64,000 bases of DNA. Origin: Escherichia phage FL04. This document shows positions 19,179 to 46,158 of the stretch, in pieces. The translations under genes were made by a program, and so were the position numbers. The notes under the pieces were generated by a model. It saw only the letters and a list, made by a program, of their open reading frames with translations. It had not been told where the DNA came from and did no database searches. Position 1 is the stretch's first letter. Each line of letters starts with the position of its first letter. The stretch lies in sequence record PP358550; one strand, written 5' to 3'.

Positions 19179-19207
19179 TTGACAGGGGATCGCCGATCCC
19201 CTATAAT
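19179..19207 (+). promoter_or_regulatory. PeSL-type early promoter with palindromic 17-nt spacer
   Basis: TTGACA-GGGGATCGCCGATCCCC-TATAAT. Confidence 0.7.
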
Positions 19208-40620: not shown

Positions 40621-40889
40621 TGAAAGTCGGTATTATTCAATTATGGACGGCTACCAGTGAAAACTACGCAGTAGCCGTAGATTATTACGGTTTACAATAT
40701 CTCTATGATGAAGCGAGCGCATCATGGCTTCCTGTGCAAGAAAATAGCGATATCTCAAGACCTGCTACTATATTCGACCGTGGCGTTGTCTTTATCGATA
40801 TTGACGAGACAGTAGCAAAACTGCGTAAGAAAGCAATCAATAAGAAAAAGGTGATGTGGGATGAAAGAATATTTGAAACTATTGCGTGA
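40620..40889 (+). CDS. hypothetical protein (89 aa)
   Basis: ATG 40620 overlapping upstream stop; 3-prime end overlaps td start by 29 nt. Confidence 0.45.
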   Translation: MKVGIIQLWTATSENYAVAVDYYGLQYLYDEASASWLPVQENSDISRPATIFDRGVVFIDIDETVAKLRKKAINKKKVMWDERIFETIA

Positions 40890-42093
40890 TGTTCTTGATA
40901 ATGGATGGCCTCGTGAAGACCGAACTGGGGTAGGTACGCTATCTAAATTCGGCGCAGAGATGCGAATTGATTTAAGCAAGGGTTTCCCATTACTGACCAC
41001 TAAAAAGATGGCTACAGCCTCTGTAATTGGCGAATTGCTATGGTTTATGGAGGGATCACTTGACCGCCGTCGCTTACAGGAAATTACACGCGGTAAGTTT
41101 GACGAAGAAGCCTTCGACATTTGGCGCGGCAACTGTCTTGATATGAAAGAAAAGAATCCTTTGCGATTCAATGGTTATAATGTCGGCAATATGTATGGTA
41201 TGGCATGGCGACGCAAACCGATTCATCCACACGGTGAAATCAAAATTAAGCGCGTTAAGAGCAAATATGCACATACATTTAAGCACCCGTGGGTAGAAGA
41301 CTTTACGCCAACCAATGAAACAGAAGACCGTTTATGTGCTATCTGGCGTGGTATGCGTTATGAAGAGTTTGATTCTGAATATAATCAATTCTTAGTAGCA
41401 GACCACTGGAAGACTCAATCTAATTTTGTTAATGATGCATATTGCTTGTGGGGATTCCAGGAATGGGTAGATGATGGTTATTTCGGTTATCTGCTTGATA
41501 GTGATTATCTGGGCGGGGATATTTTAGCGCCAGATACCACGATCTTTGCTAGTATGGACGTAGACACATCGAGCACTAAAGACGATGAAGAATATGTCTA
41601 TCGACCGAAGATTTGGGAAGACCAGTTACAAAACGTGATTGAACAAATTAAAAACAATCCAACGGATCGACGTATCATCATTGACTCATGGAACGTACAA
41701 GGAACACATAATGCTGTATTAGGTGTATGTCATCCTTTCGTGCAATTCTACGTCAATGAAGGTAAACTGTCTTGTATGTGGTTTCAGCGAAGCGTAGACA
41801 GCTTTTTAGGCTTGCCCTTTAACGTCGCCAGCTATGCGCTGTTAACTCACATCATAGCGAAAATGTGTGATCTTGAGGTAGGAGAACTGATTTTCTCTGG
41901 TGGAGATACTCACATTTACAAAAACCATTTTGATCAAGTTATGGAACAGTTAAGCCGTGTTCCGTTTGATAAACCAACGATTGAGTTGCCGGAATTTGAA
42001 TCTTTAGATGAGGTATTGACAAAGACTCCGAAAGACTTTAAAATTCACAACTATCAAAGCCATCCAGCAATCACCGCTCAAATGGCAGTATAA
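40861..42093 (+). CDS. td: thymidylate synthase with large internal in-frame insertion
   Basis: 410 aa; TS motifs DRTG.GT, LLWF, YG.AWR, DRRIII.SWN, active-site CHPFVQFYV, RSVDSFLGLPFN.ASYALLTHIIA, GGDTHIY; residues about 119-254 have no counterpart in canonical TS. Confidence 0.88.
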   Translation: MKEYLKLLRDVLDNGWPREDRTGVGTLSKFGAEMRIDLSKGFPLLTTKKMATASVIGELLWFMEGSLDRRRLQEITRGKFDEEAFDIWRGNCLDMKEKNPLRFNGYNVGNMYGMAWRRKPIHPHGEIKIKRVKSKYAHTFKHPWVEDFTPTNETEDRLCAIWRGMRYEEFDSEYNQFLVADHWKTQSNFVNDAYCLWGFQEWVDDGYFGYLLDSDYLGGDILAPDTTIFASMDVDTSSTKDDEEYVYRPKIWEDQLQNVIEQIKNNPTDRRIIIDSWNVQGTHNAVLGVCHPFVQFYVNEGKLSCMWFQRSVDSFLGLPFNVASYALLTHIIAKMCDLEVGELIFSGGDTHIYKNHFDQVMEQLSRVPFDKPTIELPEFESLDEVLTKTPKDFKIHNYQSHPAITAQMAV

Positions 42094-42161: not shown

Positions 42162-44405
42162 ATGATTAAAAATGTTGTTAAGTCTTCCGGTCTGACTGTT
42201 CCGTTTGAAAAAGAAAAAGTAATGAAAATTCTGGAAGCGGCAGCCGAAGGTCATAACGTTGATCCATATGAATTGTTTGATATGGTTGAACCACTTCTGA
42301 CAGAAGGTATGTCTACCAATGATATCCAGAAAGTATTGATTAAGGTCGCAGCAGATAACATTACTGTCGAAACACCCGATTATCAATATGTAGCAAGTAA
42401 CCTTGCAATGTTCGCGCTTCGCAAATCAGTATACGGTCAATTCCAACCTATTGATTTTTATAGCCATATTGAGCGTAATATTGCAACCGGAAAATATGAT
42501 CGCGAAATTCTGCAAAAGTATTCCCGTGAAGAAGTGGAATATCTGGAGAAATTCATCGACCATAAACTTGATTTTAAAATGACCTATGCTGGTGCGATGC
42601 AGTTAAAAGAGAAATATCTTGTTCAGGATCGCAGCACTAAGAAAATCATCGAAACACCGCAATTTGCGTATATGCTGATCGGTATGTGCTTGCATCAAGA
42701 AGAGACCGAAAATCGACTTGAACATGTGATTGATTTTTATAATGCGGTTGCGAATAAGCAAATCTCTCTGCCTACTCCGATTATGGCAGGTGTGCGTACC
42801 CCAACACGCCAATTTAGTTCGTGTGTGGTGATCGAAAGTGATGACTCATTGCAGGGTATTAATGAAACCGCAAATGCAATCATTAAGTATATTAGCAAGC
42901 GTGCTGGTATCGGTATCAACGCTGGCATGATTCGCGCGGAAGGATCTAAGATCGGGCATGGTGAAGTTCGTCATACTGGCGTTATCCCATTCTGGAAACA
43001 TTTTCAGACTGCCGTTAAGTCATGCTCACAAGGCGGTATTCGTGGCGGGGCAGCGACACTCTATTACCCAATGTGGCATTTAGAGTTTGAAAGTCTGATT
43101 GTGTTAAAGAACAATAAGGGCGTGGAAGATAACCGCATTCGCCATCTTGACTACGGCGTACAGATTAATAACCTGATGGTAGAGCGATTCCTTAAACGGG
43201 ATTACATTACTCTGTTTAGTCCAGATGTTGCGGGTGGCTTGTTGTGGGATCTATACTTCCGAGATGAGGAAGGTTTCCGCCAACTTTACGAAAAACTGGA
43301 AAAAGATCCGAGTGTTCGTAAAACTCGTGTTAAAGCCGAAGACCTGTTTTTAGCGGTGGCAATTGAACGTTTTAACACTGGTCGAATCTACCCAACGTTC
43401 ACAGACAACATGAACAATCACGGGGCGTTTATTCGTAATGTAGCACCGATTAAACAATCTAACCTGTGTTGTGAAATTGCACTGCCTACTAAACCGATGG
43501 GTCGTGATGATTCAGAAATTAGCCTATGTACTTTGGCAGCATATGTTTTAGGTAATTTCGATATCGAAAATATGGAAGAAGTAGAACGCATTGCTATGGT
43601 TATGGTGCGTGCACTTGACAACCTGTTAGATTATCAGGATTATCCTGTAGAACAAGCTCTGACAGCCAAAAAACGTCGCTCTCTGGGTGTTGGTGTTACT
43701 AACTTTGCATCATATCTAGCAGATAATTTCTTCACATATGAAGACGCTAACGAGTTTACGCATAAAACGTTTGAACGCTTGCAATATGCTCTGATTAAGG
43801 CTAGTGTGCGACTGGCTAAAGAGAAGGGTGCTTGCGAACTGATGCACGAAACACGCTATGGTCGCGGTGAACTGCCTATCGACTGGTACAAAAAGACAGT
43901 AGATGAACTGGTTGATCCGGTGTATGAGATGGATTGGGAAGAACTGCGCGAAGACCTGAAAAAATATGGCATTCGTAACAGTACACTGTCGGCGCTGATG
44001 CCTTGTGAGTCGTCTTCTCAGGTATCTAACAGCACAAACGGTATTGAACCGCCTCGCGGGATTGTATCGGTTAAAGGATCGAAAGAAGGACAATTTAATC
44101 AGGTTATTCCGAACGTAGAGAATAATGCTGATGTTATTGACCTGCTTTGGACACTGATCAAGAAAGGTAACAAGCCTTATCTGACACTGGCAGCAATCAT
44201 GCAGAAGTTTGTGGATCAGGCGATTAGTTCCAATACATCCTATGATCCAAGCACTTATAAGACTGGTAAAGTCGATATTGCTGATGTATTAGATGATATG
44301 TTGTTTGCTCAATATTACGGTCTGAAAACCCTGTATTATGCGAACGTTCGCGACGGTGCAGATGGTACGGAAGACGCTAGCGAGTGCTCATCTTGCAAGC
44401 TGTAA
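42162..44405 (+). CDS. nrdA: ribonucleotide reductase large subunit (class Ia)
   Basis: 747 aa; N-terminal ATP-cone region, catalytic region with SNLCCEI, C-terminal CSSCKL redox pair. Confidence 0.92.
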   Translation: MIKNVVKSSGLTVPFEKEKVMKILEAAAEGHNVDPYELFDMVEPLLTEGMSTNDIQKVLIKVAADNITVETPDYQYVASNLAMFALRKSVYGQFQPIDFYSHIERNIATGKYDREILQKYSREEVEYLEKFIDHKLDFKMTYAGAMQLKEKYLVQDRSTKKIIETPQFAYMLIGMCLHQEETENRLEHVIDFYNAVANKQISLPTPIMAGVRTPTRQFSSCVVIESDDSLQGINETANAIIKYISKRAGIGINAGMIRAEGSKIGHGEVRHTGVIPFWKHFQTAVKSCSQGGIRGGAATLYYPMWHLEFESLIVLKNNKGVEDNRIRHLDYGVQINNLMVERFLKRDYITLFSPDVAGGLLWDLYFRDEEGFRQLYEKLEKDPSVRKTRVKAEDLFLAVAIERFNTGRIYPTFTDNMNNHGAFIRNVAPIKQSNLCCEIALPTKPMGRDDSEISLCTLAAYVLGNFDIENMEEVERIAMVMVRALDNLLDYQDYPVEQALTAKKRRSLGVGVTNFASYLADNFFTYEDANEFTHKTFERLQYALIKASVRLAKEKGACELMHETRYGRGELPIDWYKKTVDELVDPVYEMDWEELREDLKKYGIRNSTLSALMPCESSSQVSNSTNGIEPPRGIVSVKGSKEGQFNQVIPNVENNADVIDLLWTLIKKGNKPYLTLAAIMQKFVDQAISSNTSYDPSTYKTGKVDIADVLDDMLFAQYYGLKTLYYANVRDGADGTEDASECSSCKL

Positions 44406-44413
44406 AATAAGTG

Positions 44414-44442
44414 TTGACGCGGGGAGAAATCCCCGCTATAAT
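44414..44442 (+). promoter_or_regulatory. PeSL-type early promoter with hairpin spacer
   Basis: TTGACG-GCGGGGA-GAAA-TCCCCGC-TATAAT. Confidence 0.65.
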
Positions 44443-44473: not shown

Positions 44474-44642
44474 ATGACCAAATTAAAATGTGTTGCTGTA
44501 GATTTTTGAACTAGCTGATAGCTTTGTTGTTGGTGATGAATATGATGCTCGACATGATGGGACTTGCTACTACGTCGAGGATGAATATGGTGTAGAATGG
44601 GCGATTCTTCCTGATGATAAATGTTTTGAGGTTGTCGGATAA
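44474..44642 (+). pseudogene. small ORF disrupted by +1 frameshift at a T5 run (or programmed frameshift / sequence error)
   Basis: MTKLKCVAVDF-stop at 44507; continuing in +1 frame from 44508 gives ELADSFVVGDEYDARHDGTCYYVEDEYGVEWAILPDDKCFEVVG; joined product resembles paralogs at 17666 and 47020. Confidence 0.45.
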
Positions 44643-44815
44643 TGGCTACTGTATGGTTATTGATTGCAATCAGCAATTCAATGTATAATTACGGAAATAT
44701 GTCAAGCATTGAATTTGCAACAAAGCAGGATTGCGTTAAAGCTCGCGAGATTATCCGCGAAGACAATAAACGATTTATGAATCTATATTGCGTTGAAAAA
44801 CAAAAGGTGAACTAA
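44642..44815 (+). CDS. hypothetical small protein (57 aa), tandem paralog A
   Basis: MATVWLLIAISNS... ; ATG overlaps upstream stop; not in track. Confidence 0.45.
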   Translation: MATVWLLIAISNSMYNYGNMSSIEFATKQDCVKAREIIREDNKRFMNLYCVEKQKVN

Positions 44816-44982
44816 TGGCTACATTATGGTTATTGCTTTCCGTTAGCGTAGGAGTATATAATAAAGGAACTGTTACCAGCGTAGAGTTTTCATCATATCA
44901 AAATTGTTTTGAAGCTGTGCAGGAATTGCAGCAGGATAGCGAAATAAACAGAAATACTAAGTTCTTTTGTGTTAAAAAGTGA
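44815..44982 (+). CDS. hypothetical small protein (55 aa), tandem paralog B
   Basis: MATLWLLLSVSVG... similar to preceding ORF throughout; not in track. Confidence 0.45.
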   Translation: MATLWLLLSVSVGVYNKGTVTSVEFSSYQNCFEAVQELQQDSEINRNTKFFCVKK

Positions 44983-44997
44983 TAGTGAGGTGAATTA

Positions 44998-46158
44998 ATG
45001 AGCGTATTTAACCGCGAACATGTTGATATTATGAACGAACCGATGTTTCTGGGTAGTGGGTTGGGTATCGCTCGCTATGATATTCAGCGTCATCAAGTAT
45101 TTGAAGAACTGATCGAAAAGCAATTGTCATTTTTCTGGCGTCCAGAAGAAATTTCACTTGCAACCGACCGCATTCAATATCTTAATATGGGTGACGTTGA
45201 AAAGCGTTTCTTTACTGAAAACTTGAAGTATCAGACATTACTTGATTCTATTCAAGGTCGCGCACCGTCCGCAGCATTTGGTCCAATTGTATCTGATCCA
45301 ACTCTCGATACATGGTTGCAAACATGGACATTCAGCGAAACGATTCATAGCCGAAGCTATACACACATTATGCGTAACTGTTTCATTGATCCGGCTAGTG
45401 AGTTCGACCAGATCATCGATAACCCTGCTATCATGAAGCGAGCGGAATCTATCGGGAAATATTATGATGATGTTCTTTATTGGATTCGTAAGTATGAGAA
45501 TGCAAAAGAAGATCTCCGCTATTGGGAAGAACGAGACGACCAGACAGCATTAGATGATGCAAGAAGATTTTTTGAAGATACAAAACGAGATCTGATGGCT
45601 TCGATTTATCTGTGTGCACACTGCGTAAATGCACTGGAAGCAATCCGTTTTTATGTGTCCTTTGCATGTACTTTCAGCTTTGCCGAACGTGGTTTACTGG
45701 AAGGTAACGCGAAGATCATGAAATTTATTGCGCGTGATGAACAACTTCACTTAAAAGGAACACAATACATTATTCGTCAATGGCAAACGGGGGTTGATGG
45801 TGATGAGTGGAAACAGATTGCGGAAGAACTTGAAGGCGAAGCAACGAAAATCTTTCTGGATGTTGTCGAGCAAGAAAAAGAATGGGTAGACCACCTATTC
45901 GCAATGGGGGCAATTCCTAACCTGTCACCGGAAATTCTGAAAACCTATGTAGAATACCTGGCAGATTCCCGTATGCGTGCTGCCGGACTGAAAAGCCCGT
46001 TTAGTGTTCGTCGTCATCCGTTACCGTGGATGCGTAAATGGTTGAACTCTGACGAAGTACAGAATGCAGCGCAGGAAGTAGAGATTATGTATCTGGTATC
46101 TCAGGTTAATACCGATTTAACAGATGACGACTACAACCGATTCGGGAAATATCTATGA
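44998..46158 (+). CDS. nrdB: ribonucleotide reductase small subunit (class Ia), uninterrupted
   Basis: 386 aa; di-iron ligand region (SETIHSRSYTHI, EAIRFYVSFA, LHLKGTQYI); no intron-like interruption. Confidence 0.92.
   Translation: MSVFNREHVDIMNEPMFLGSGLGIARYDIQRHQVFEELIEKQLSFFWRPEEISLATDRIQYLNMGDVEKRFFTENLKYQTLLDSIQGRAPSAAFGPIVSDPTLDTWLQTWTFSETIHSRSYTHIMRNCFIDPASEFDQIIDNPAIMKRAESIGKYYDDVLYWIRKYENAKEDLRYWEERDDQTALDDARRFFEDTKRDLMASIYLCAHCVNALEAIRFYVSFACTFSFAERGLLEGNAKIMKFIARDEQLHLKGTQYIIRQWQTGVDGDEWKQIAEELEGEATKIFLDVVEQEKEWVDHLFAMGAIPNLSPEILKTYVEYLADSRMRAAGLKSPFSVRRHPLPWMRKWLNSDEVQNAAQEVEIMYLVSQVNTDLTDDDYNRFGKYL

What the first reader, a model, noticed from the sequence alone, without database searches (positions are those of the whole stretch)
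44642..44982. Tandem paralog pair of ~56-aa proteins between nrdA and nrdB
Two back-to-back small ORFs (MATVWLLIAISNS... and MATLWLLLSVSVG...) with a hydrophobic N-terminus and similar downstream sequence, translationally coupled (overlapping stop/start), sit immediately after the frameshifted cassette ORF. None is in the ORF track because of size.
Basis: seen in the sequence. Interest (0 to 1): 0.35.

Follow-up and report, generated by a model that had tools for sequence, protein, structure and literature searches.

The report
Two small paralogous phage accessory genes
Two real, conserved ~55-residue genes of unknown function sit between the ribonucleotide reductase genes of an RB49-like coliphage; relatives already annotate them as hypothetical proteins, and they look like soluble mini-proteins, not membrane proteins.

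Summary
ORF A (44642-44815, 57 aa) and ORF B (44815-44982, 55 aa) are back to back with TAATG stop/start overlaps. They are 38% identical (E 6e-16), and both match PHROG family phrog_5579 (unknown function) over its full length. The window is a Krischvirus (RB49-like T4-type phage), and RB49 annotates the same genes as hypothetical proteins RB49p232 and RB49p231. Both genes are under purifying selection (dN/dS 0.04 and 0.13).

They form an early cassette with the upstream ORF1, which is frameshifted here by one extra T. The cassette follows a "PeSL" element, a strong sigma-70 promoter with a stem-loop in its spacer. The pair is dispensable: JSE, AV108 and FL15 carry a homing endonuclease in its place, and FL20 has lost copy A.

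The membrane reading is not supported. The hydrophobic stretch has a median length of 7 residues, usually has no positive charge before it, and no member reaches the transmembrane threshold. AlphaFold (pLDDT 88) places it as a strand of a three-stranded strand-strand-helix-strand fold. The family has two invariant cysteines and occurs in T4-, T7- and T1-like phages, beside replication or nucleotide-metabolism genes in seven of the ten genomic settings examined. A second tandem pair exists in an unrelated phage.

Function remains unknown. My best guess is a dimeric cytoplasmic binder of a host or phage protein.

The parts
44414..44442 (+). PeSL element: sigma-70-type early promoter (TTGACG, 17 nt, TATAAT) with the stem-loop GCGGGGA-GAAA-TCCCCGC (44419-44436) in its spacer, 9 nt after the nrdA stop
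   Evidence: The promoter matches 11 of 12 consensus positions. The hairpin folds at -19 kcal/mol, z = -5.35. The same architecture recurs at 19179, 55322, 55716, 56880, 57125 and 59434. It matches the promoter-early stem-loop elements described for RB49 and phi1 (PMC2839356). It is invariant in RB49, kvi, FL20 and KMB43.
44474..44642 (+). ORF1 of the cassette (phrog_16302, 55 aa in relatives). In this window it is frameshifted by an extra T in the run 44503-44507: frame 1 stops at TGA 44507-44509, and the rest reads in the +1 frame to TAA 44640-44642.
   Evidence: Sequence; alignment with RB49, kvi, KMB43 and FL20; the corrected translation matches phrog_16302 at E 9e-42; dN/dS 0.10.
44642..44815 (+). 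ORF A, 57 aa, phrog_5579 member (identical to RB49p232). Predicted strand 5-11, strand 20-25, helix 28-42, strand 46-52. Invariant Cys31 and Cys50.
44815..44982 (+). ORF B, 55 aa, phrog_5579 member (identical to RB49p231). Its start overlaps the stop of A (TAATG), and it has its own AAGGTG Shine-Dalgarno at 44804-44809.
42162..44405 (+). nrdA (ribonucleotide reductase large subunit), the upstream flank of the cassette
   Evidence: annotation of relatives.
44998..46158 (+). nrdB (ribonucleotide reductase small subunit), the downstream flank, 15 nt after the stop of B
   Evidence: annotation of relatives.

Best explanation
Shown:
- ORF A and ORF B are two genuine, divergent members of a widespread small phage protein family (phrog_5579, about 50-65 aa).
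- With ORF1 they form a dispensable three-gene ORFan cassette inserted between nrdA and nrdB of a Krischvirus.
- The cassette sits behind a PeSL element. Its stem-loop is expected to stop nrdA transcripts, and its strong sigma-70 promoter to restart early transcription through ORF1, A, B and nrdB.

Predicted: each protein is a soluble strand-strand-helix-strand mini-domain. The all-hydrophobic N-terminal strand is most likely the central strand of the sheet (strand order inferred, not read from coordinates).

Inferred:
- The two invariant cysteines (helix N-terminus and strand 3) lie next to each other.
- Because strand 1 is hydrophobic on both faces and only one helix covers the sheet, the proteins probably pair up. 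They would form homodimers where the gene is single and A-B heterodimers here.
- They most likely act early in the cytoplasm by stoichiometric binding to a host or phage protein of DNA or nucleotide metabolism, as a host-takeover or counter-defence accessory factor.
For: Real genes:
- dN/dS is 0.036 for A and 0.13 for B, against 0.036 for nrdB.
- Both give full-length phrog_5579 matches.
- An exhaustive profile search lists 49 cluster representatives at E<1e-3. Two of them (P0020, P0033) are long repeat-driven proteins that look spurious; the other 47 are mostly 50-76 aa, plus one 44-aa and one 113-aa member.
- C31 and C50 are invariant. W5, L7, G18 and F25 are invariant or nearly so.

Early cassette:
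- The promoter and hairpin are described.
- PeSL promoters and terminators were shown to be functional in RB49 and phi1 (PMC2839356).

Dispensable:
- Of 58 Krischvirus records, 52 carry A and B.
- FL20 carries a single A/B chimera after an exact 174-bp deletion between the near-identical 5' ends. G37-3 also has one copy.
- JSE (two records), AV108 and FL15 carry a homing endonuclease in place of the pair.

Soluble fold:
- AF2 gives pLDDT 80, rising to 88 with a deeper alignment, with the same secondary structure.
- Related BFVD models superpose with query-normalised TM-scores of 0.78-0.85 for the three best matches.
- The N-terminus has no transmembrane or Sec-like features.

Genomic setting:
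- Family members lie beside replication or nucleotide-metabolism genes in unrelated phages. Examples are between nrdA and nrdB (Krischvirus, L013), upstream of nrdB/nrdA (L006, L007), between helicase and DNA polymerase (L004, L012), and between ligase and primase-helicase (L008).

Pairing:
- A second translationally coupled tandem pair of divergent members exists in an unrelated GC-rich phage contig (L010 2046-2437).
Against: - No experimental data exist for any member: no literature hit and no Pfam, NCBIfam or PDB relative.
- Dimerisation and the binder role are inference only.
- Foldseek against the PDB gave nothing below E 0.27.
- Two invariant cysteines are unusual for a simple cytoplasmic binder. 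They fit a redox, metal or disulfide role better.
- The very low dN/dS of A does not look like an arms-race gene.
- Genomic settings are heterogeneous, so there is no constant partner gene.
Confidence: 0.4

Rival explanations
1. Exported mini-proteins. The N-terminus would be a very short signal peptide cleaved after the conserved S-x-G. The roughly 42-aa mature peptide would carry a structural Cys31-Cys50 disulfide made in the periplasm, and would act on the envelope (for example superinfection exclusion).
For: - Exactly two invariant cysteines in an otherwise variable small protein is the classic signature of a disulfide.
- S-x-G or S-N-S after the hydrophobic run fits the -3/-1 rule for signal peptidase.
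- One structural neighbour in BFVD is annotated 'putative secreted protein' (Rhizobium phage Paso).
Against: - The putative signal would be only 13-15 residues long.
- The hydrophobic run has a median of 7 residues, and only 10 of 73 members have Lys or Arg before it.
- W5 and L7 inside it are nearly invariant, which is unlike signal peptides.
- AF2 builds the segment confidently into the sheet. Removing it would take one of the three strands out of the fold.
Confidence: 0.12
2. Redox or metal cofactor proteins of nucleotide metabolism. The Cys pair at the helix N-terminus and strand 3 would be either a dithiol-disulfide couple or half of a dimer-bridging Zn, Cu or Fe-S site, serving ribonucleotide reductase or a neighbouring enzyme.
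For: - The cysteines are invariant.
- Two phage lineages place the gene directly next to nrdA or nrdB: Krischvirus with L013, and L006/L007.
- The weak best PDB profile hits fall on the metal-binding strand-helix junction of copper-chaperone (HMA) domains, but at E 0.25, which is not significant.
Against: - There is no CxxC motif and no match to thioredoxin, glutaredoxin, NrdH or ferredoxin models.
- Krischviruses JSE, AV108 and FL15 keep nrdA and nrdB but lack the pair.
- Six of the ten genomic settings examined are not next to a reductase.
Confidence: 0.12
3. Spurious or decaying ORFs: non-functional remnants in a recombination hotspot.
For: - The spacer is highly plastic, with methylase, HNH and homing-endonuclease insertions and a deletion.
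- The neighbouring ORF1 is frameshifted in this window.
Against: - Purifying selection on A equals that on nrdB, and selection on B (dN/dS 0.13) is still strongly purifying.
- Family-wide conservation spans T4-, T7- and T1-like phages with invariant residues.
- The predicted fold is confident.
Confidence: 0.02

Closest known systems
PHROG family phrog_5579 (unknown function), including RB49p232 and RB49p231, Escherichia phage Stevie_ev116 VUF55078.1, and an unannotated ORF of Enterobacter phage SDFMU_EhYP
   Same: Both ORFs give full-length HMM matches (E about 1e-24). They share the length, the N-terminal W-L-L motif and the two cysteines. A is 100% identical to RB49p232.
   Different: Nothing differs; these are members. 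The family itself has no assigned function, no Pfam or NCBIfam model and no solved structure.
PeSL (promoter-early stem-loop) ORFan cassettes of RB49 and phi1 (Arbiol et al. 2010, PMC2839356)
   Same: [quoted passage not shown] Close relatives differ here by insertion, deletion and replacement.
   Different: The paper does not mention this nrdA-nrdB cassette. This cassette lies inside a conserved metabolic operon rather than in a hyperplastic region.
Small phage-encoded protein inhibitors with a three-strand, one-helix fold (T4 Dmd antitoxin, 5hy3_B; phi29/PZA p56 uracil-DNA-glycosylase inhibitor, 4l5n_C)
   Same: Similar size (50-60 aa), phage origin and the same general alpha/beta class. Foldseek TM-scores are 0.52-0.56. 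p56 acts as a dimer (title of PDB entry 2le2).
   Different: The Foldseek E-values (2.1-2.4) are not significant. The profile comparison with Dmd gives probability 0.07. Neither protein shows sequence similarity to the family: 4% identity for p56 and 18% for Dmd in the Foldseek alignments.
Sec signal-peptide-bearing small periplasmic phage proteins (for example T4 Sp, annotated 'spackle periplasmic')
   Same: A hydrophobic N-terminus followed by small residues, in a small early protein.
   Different: The hydrophobic run is too short, the n-region is uncharged, and the segment is conserved and predicted as a core strand.

Membership tests
phrog_5579 | Full-length match to the family HMM | tested here: met
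   A: E 6.8e-24 over profile positions 1-52 of 52. B: E 5.7e-24 over 1-52 of 52. 42 of 49 remote homologues hit the same family.
phrog_5579 | About 50-65 aa, an N-terminal W/Y-[LIM]-L strand, and two cysteines about 19-22 residues apart | tested here: met
   Alignments A3 and A6: C31 and C50 are invariant; W5, L7, G18 and F25 are invariant or nearly so.
PeSL ORFan cassette (Arbiol et al. 2010) | Sigma-70 consensus promoter combined with a stable stem-loop, upstream of ORFs of unknown function | tested here: met
   TTGACG, 17 nt, TATAAT matches 11/12 positions. The hairpin folds at -19 kcal/mol, z = -5.35.
PeSL ORFan cassette (Arbiol et al. 2010) | Insertion, deletion or replacement polymorphism between close relatives at the element | tested here: met
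   A methylase is inserted in KMB43 and L017. An HNH gene is inserted in L021 and L022. A+B are replaced by a homing endonuclease in JSE, AV108 and FL15. A is deleted in FL20.
PeSL ORFan cassette (Arbiol et al. 2010) | Promoter and terminator activity of this particular copy | not testable with these tools
   This needs a reporter assay or transcription-start mapping.
Membrane or Sec-exported protein | A transmembrane helix of about 19 hydrophobic residues | tested here: not met
   The best 19-residue Kyte-Doolittle window is 0.61 for A and 1.07 for B, with a family maximum of 1.43, below 1.6.
Membrane or Sec-exported protein | A signal peptide with a positively charged n-region, an h-region of about 10 residues or more, and a total length of about 18 or more | tested here: not met
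   10 of 73 members have Lys or Arg before the Trp. The hydrophobic run has a median of 7 and a maximum of 10. The putative cleavage site would fall at residues 13-15. No SignalP-type predictor was available.
Membrane or Sec-exported protein | Small residues at -3 and -1 of a cleavage site | tested here: inconclusive
   S-x-G or S-N-S follows the hydrophobic run in most members. The same motif is part of a conserved S-x-G-x-Y-N-x-G loop between strands 1 and 2.
Thioredoxin / glutaredoxin / NrdH redoxins | A CxxC active site and the thioredoxin fold | tested here: not met
   The cysteines are 19-21 residues apart. There are no Pfam or NCBIfam hits. The predicted fold has only three strands and one helix.
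T4 Dmd antitoxin | Sequence or profile homology to Dmd | tested here: not met
   hhalign probability 0.07. Foldseek TM 0.55 at E 2.4.
Pfam DUF1482 | A match to PF07358 above its threshold | tested here: not met
   One of 49 members matches, at E 0.11; A and B give none. The lead came from one BFVD neighbour so named.

The most novel reading that the evidence does not exclude
phrog_5579 would be a widespread but unrecognised class of roughly 55-residue cytoplasmic two-cysteine mini-proteins. They would assemble as dimers, and as heterodimers where two divergent copies are translationally coupled, as here and in L010. The four cysteines would form a shared redox or metal centre. Phages of several families would then carry a previously undescribed small cofactor or regulator for their DNA or nucleotide-metabolism machinery.
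Probability: 0.12. Interest if true: 0.55.

Novelty: already known. Interest (0 to 1): 0.27.

Why it matters
The pair itself is ordinary. The genes are annotated as hypothetical proteins in dozens of RB49-like genomes and belong to an existing PHROG family.

What may be worth a follow-up is the family. It occurs in T4-, T7- and T1-like phages, has a confident mini-fold and two invariant cysteines, and tends to sit beside replication or nucleotide-metabolism genes. It has arisen as a coupled pair of divergent copies at least twice, and no function is known.

Natural knock-outs already exist (JSE, AV108, FL15 and FL20), so testing what the genes do would be cheap.

Tried and rejected
- Pfam, NCBIfam and PDB sequence searches gave nothing significant.
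- Foldseek against the PDB with both models gave a best E of 0.27, to PII-like SbtB. I treat this as a generic split strand-helix-strand resemblance.
- The T4 Dmd lead from Foldseek (TM 0.55) was rejected by profile comparison.
- The DUF1482 lead from BFVD was rejected.
- The search for related loci with alignments A3, A4 and A5 failed for lack of a conserved 7-10-column stretch.
- tblastn with two remote homologues against cultured phages returned only Krischvirus, one Koutsourovirus and one Tlsvirus.
- The multi-repeat proteins P0020 (775 aa) and P0033 (351 aa) from the exhaustive search look like repeat-driven false positives and were excluded.
- Literature searches for the family, the RB49 locus tags, DUF1482 and Krischvirus small proteins found nothing relevant.
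- The RB49 genome paper (PMC135041) is not held.
- A recent tandem duplication was rejected, because A and B are not each other's closest relatives. The tree rests on about 55 residues and is weak.

Full report
**Identity of the window**

The 801 bases around the finding are 98-99% identical to Escherichia phages kvi, MIZ2/3/6, GoldenSnicker and RB49 (genus Krischvirus, Straboviridae). The local gene order is frd, td, nrdA, three small ORFs, nrdB and a polynucleotide kinase/phosphatase.

**The observation**

- The ORF1/A and A/B junctions both read TAATG, so stop and start overlap.
- B has an AAGGTG Shine-Dalgarno 5 nt upstream. A has GAGG 10 nt upstream.
- The two proteins are 38% identical and 75% similar, E 6e-16.
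- Each matches PHROG family phrog_5579 ("unknown function") end to end at E about 6e-24.
- RB49 annotates the same three ORFs as the hypothetical proteins RB49p233, RB49p232 and RB49p231.

**They are real genes**

I compared ten Krischvirus loci: the window, RB49, kvi, KMB43 and six metagenomic contigs. Nei-Gojobori dN/dS is 0.036 for A, 0.13 for B and 0.10 for ORF1. The same loci give 0.036 for nrdB and 0.008 for nrdA. The amino-acid changes in B concentrate in the predicted helix (dN/dS 0.17 there, against 0.07 in the strands), while A is almost invariant.

**The upstream ORF and the regulatory element**

- ORF1 starts at 44474 behind a GAGG Shine-Dalgarno.
- In this window it hits TGA at 44507-44509 because the T-run 44503-44507 has five T. 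RB49, kvi, KMB43 and FL20 have four.
- With one T removed it matches phrog_16302 over 55 of 55 positions (E 9e-42).
- The same-length allele appears in kaaroe, FL38 and AV108. FL20 and FL37 carry an independent 2-bp deletion.
- Nine bases after the nrdA stop lies TTGACG, 17 nt, TATAAT (11/12 consensus positions).
- The hairpin GCGGGGA-GAAA-TCCCCGC sits in the promoter spacer (-19 kcal/mol, z = -5.35).
- The same promoter-plus-G/C-hairpin design recurs at least six more times in the window.
- This is the "PeSL" (promoter-early stem-loop) element described for RB49 and phi1. There it is a strong sigma-70 promoter plus an effective terminator, usually sits in front of ORFans, and mediates modular shuffling (PMC2839356).
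- That paper does not discuss this particular cassette.

**The cassette is accessory**

- Of 58 Krischvirus records that hold ORF1, 52 hold both A and B.
- FL20 has an exact 174-bp deletion between the near-identical first 25 nt of A and B, leaving one chimeric copy. G37-3 also has a single copy abutting ORF1.
- JSE (two records), AV108 and FL15 have a homing endonuclease gene in place of A and B.
- Other relatives carry a DNA methylase between nrdA and the PeSL (KMB43, L017), or an HNH gene between B and nrdB (L021, L022).
- The nrdA-nrdB spacer is therefore a swap hotspot. T4 carries mobE at the same place (PMC2988022).

**The family**

- Word-indexed searches found only near-identical proteins.
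- An exhaustive profile search of 1.8 billion representatives listed 49 at E<1e-3. Two multi-repeat proteins among them look spurious. The other 47 are mostly 50-76 aa, plus one 44-aa and one 113-aa member.
- Alignments show C31 and C50 invariant, and W5, L7, G18 and F25 invariant or nearly so. Most members share an S-x-G-x-Y-N-x-G loop.
- No Pfam, NCBIfam or PDB sequence relative exists. 42 of 49 members fall in phrog_5579.
- Among cultured phages the family occurs in three places: Krischvirus, an unannotated ORF of the T7-like Enterobacter phage SDFMU_EhYP, and the T1-like Escherichia phage Stevie_ev116.

**Genomic settings**

| Locus | Position of the family gene |
|---|---|
| L013 (another T4-like phage) | single copy directly between a split nrdA and nrdB, behind the same PeSL |
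| L006, L007 | between thyX and nrdB/nrdA, two genes from the reductase |
| L004, L012 | between the DnaB-like helicase and DNA polymerase A |
| L008 | between a ligase-like gene and the primase-helicase |
| L010 | after an RNA ligase |
| L014, L015, L016, L023 | among rIIB, radical-SAM or unknown small genes |

The common denominator is the early to middle DNA and nucleotide-metabolism region, not one constant partner gene. An HMM scan of all fetched DNA found only A and B in the 64-kb window. It also found one further tandem, overlapping pair of divergent members, in the GC-rich contigs L010 and L011. In a neighbour-joining tree B groups with the single-copy L013 gene, and A groups with other lineages. 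The pair is therefore old or assembled by transfer rather than a recent duplication, although a tree on 55 residues is weak.

**Structure and localisation**

- AlphaFold2 gives the same model with a shallow alignment (pLDDT 80) and a deeper one (pLDDT 88, pTM 0.69): strand 5-11, strand 20-25, helix 28-42, strand 46-52.
- The hydrophobic N-terminus is strand 1, with pLDDT about 85.
- Across 73 members, only 10 have Lys or Arg before the conserved Trp.
- The strictly hydrophobic run has a median of 7 residues and a maximum of 10.
- The best 19-residue Kyte-Doolittle window reaches 1.43, below 1.6.
- A cleavage after S-x-G would imply a 13-15-residue signal peptide.

I therefore regard membrane insertion as excluded and Sec export as unlikely, though no dedicated predictor was available.

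Foldseek finds many small uncharacterised phage proteins in BFVD, with query-normalised TM-scores of 0.78-0.85 for the three best matches. It finds nothing significant in the PDB. The best match is PII-like SbtB at E 0.27. T4 Dmd and phi29/PZA p56 appear at TM about 0.55 and E above 2. Profile comparison with Dmd is negative.

**Mechanism**

Shown:
- The two genes are real and conserved.
- The cassette sits behind a PeSL-type promoter and hairpin.
- Stop and start codons overlap.
- The pair is dispensable in nature.

Predicted: a soluble strand-strand-helix-strand fold.

Inferred from geometry:
- Strand 1 is hydrophobic on both faces, and only one helix covers the sheet. The open face therefore needs a partner, which suggests dimers: A-B heterodimers here, consistent with the second independent coupled pair in L010.
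- Cys31 (first helical turn) and Cys50 (near the end of strand 3, which runs back along the helix) should be neighbours.

Inferred from analogy with other small early phage proteins: stoichiometric binding to a host or phage protein of DNA or nucleotide metabolism. I hold this at about 0.4.

The invariant cysteine pair keeps two rivals alive at about 0.12 each: a redox or metal centre, and a periplasmic disulfide.

**Verdict**

The membrane hint is not borne out. Interest is modest. It lies in the family-wide features and in the ready-made natural knock-outs.

Noticed in passing
window 44474-44642 (T-run 44503-44507): ORF1 of the cassette is frameshifted by a fifth T. The same-length allele occurs in phages kaaroe, FL38 and AV108, and FL20 and FL37 carry an independent 2-bp deletion. 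The site reads GAU UUU UGA A, formally a +1 slippery site next to a stop codon. A null allele, a homopolymer sequencing error or low-level +1 frameshifting are all possible.
   Followed up: partly
window 19179, 44414, 55322, 55716, 56880, 57125, 59434 (+ strand): There are repeated PeSL elements: TTGAC(A/G), a GGGG...CCCC hairpin, then TATAAT. A looser promoter pattern gives 25 matches against 2.65 expected by chance.
   Followed up: partly
L003, L017, L021, L022, L026, L027, L028 (nrdA-nrdB spacer of relatives): The spacer is a swap hotspot. A DNA cytosine methylase is inserted upstream of the PeSL, an HNH gene is inserted before nrdB, or the A+B pair is replaced by a homing endonuclease.
   Followed up: yes
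L010 2046-2243 and 2240-2437 (also L011): An independent, overlapping tandem pair of two divergent phrog_5579 members lies in a GC-rich phage contig, downstream of an RNA ligase gene.
   Followed up: partly
window 40861-42093: The thymidylate synthase ORF is 410 aa, which from memory is roughly 120 aa longer than typical ThyA. Relatives have it at 406-412 aa (L013, L020, L022). It appears to carry a large internal insertion.
   Followed up: no
L007 6586-9432; L013 1753-4940: Reductase large-subunit genes in unrelated phages that carry the family are invaded by mobile elements: an intein with a LAGLIDADG domain in L007, and a split nrdA with an I-HmuI-like endonuclease in L013.
   Followed up: no
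P0020 (775 aa), P0033 (351 aa): Two long repeat proteins scored as multi-copy hits to the family profile (10 and 5 stretches). Their sequences look like low-complexity tandem repeats and are probably false positives.
   Followed up: partly
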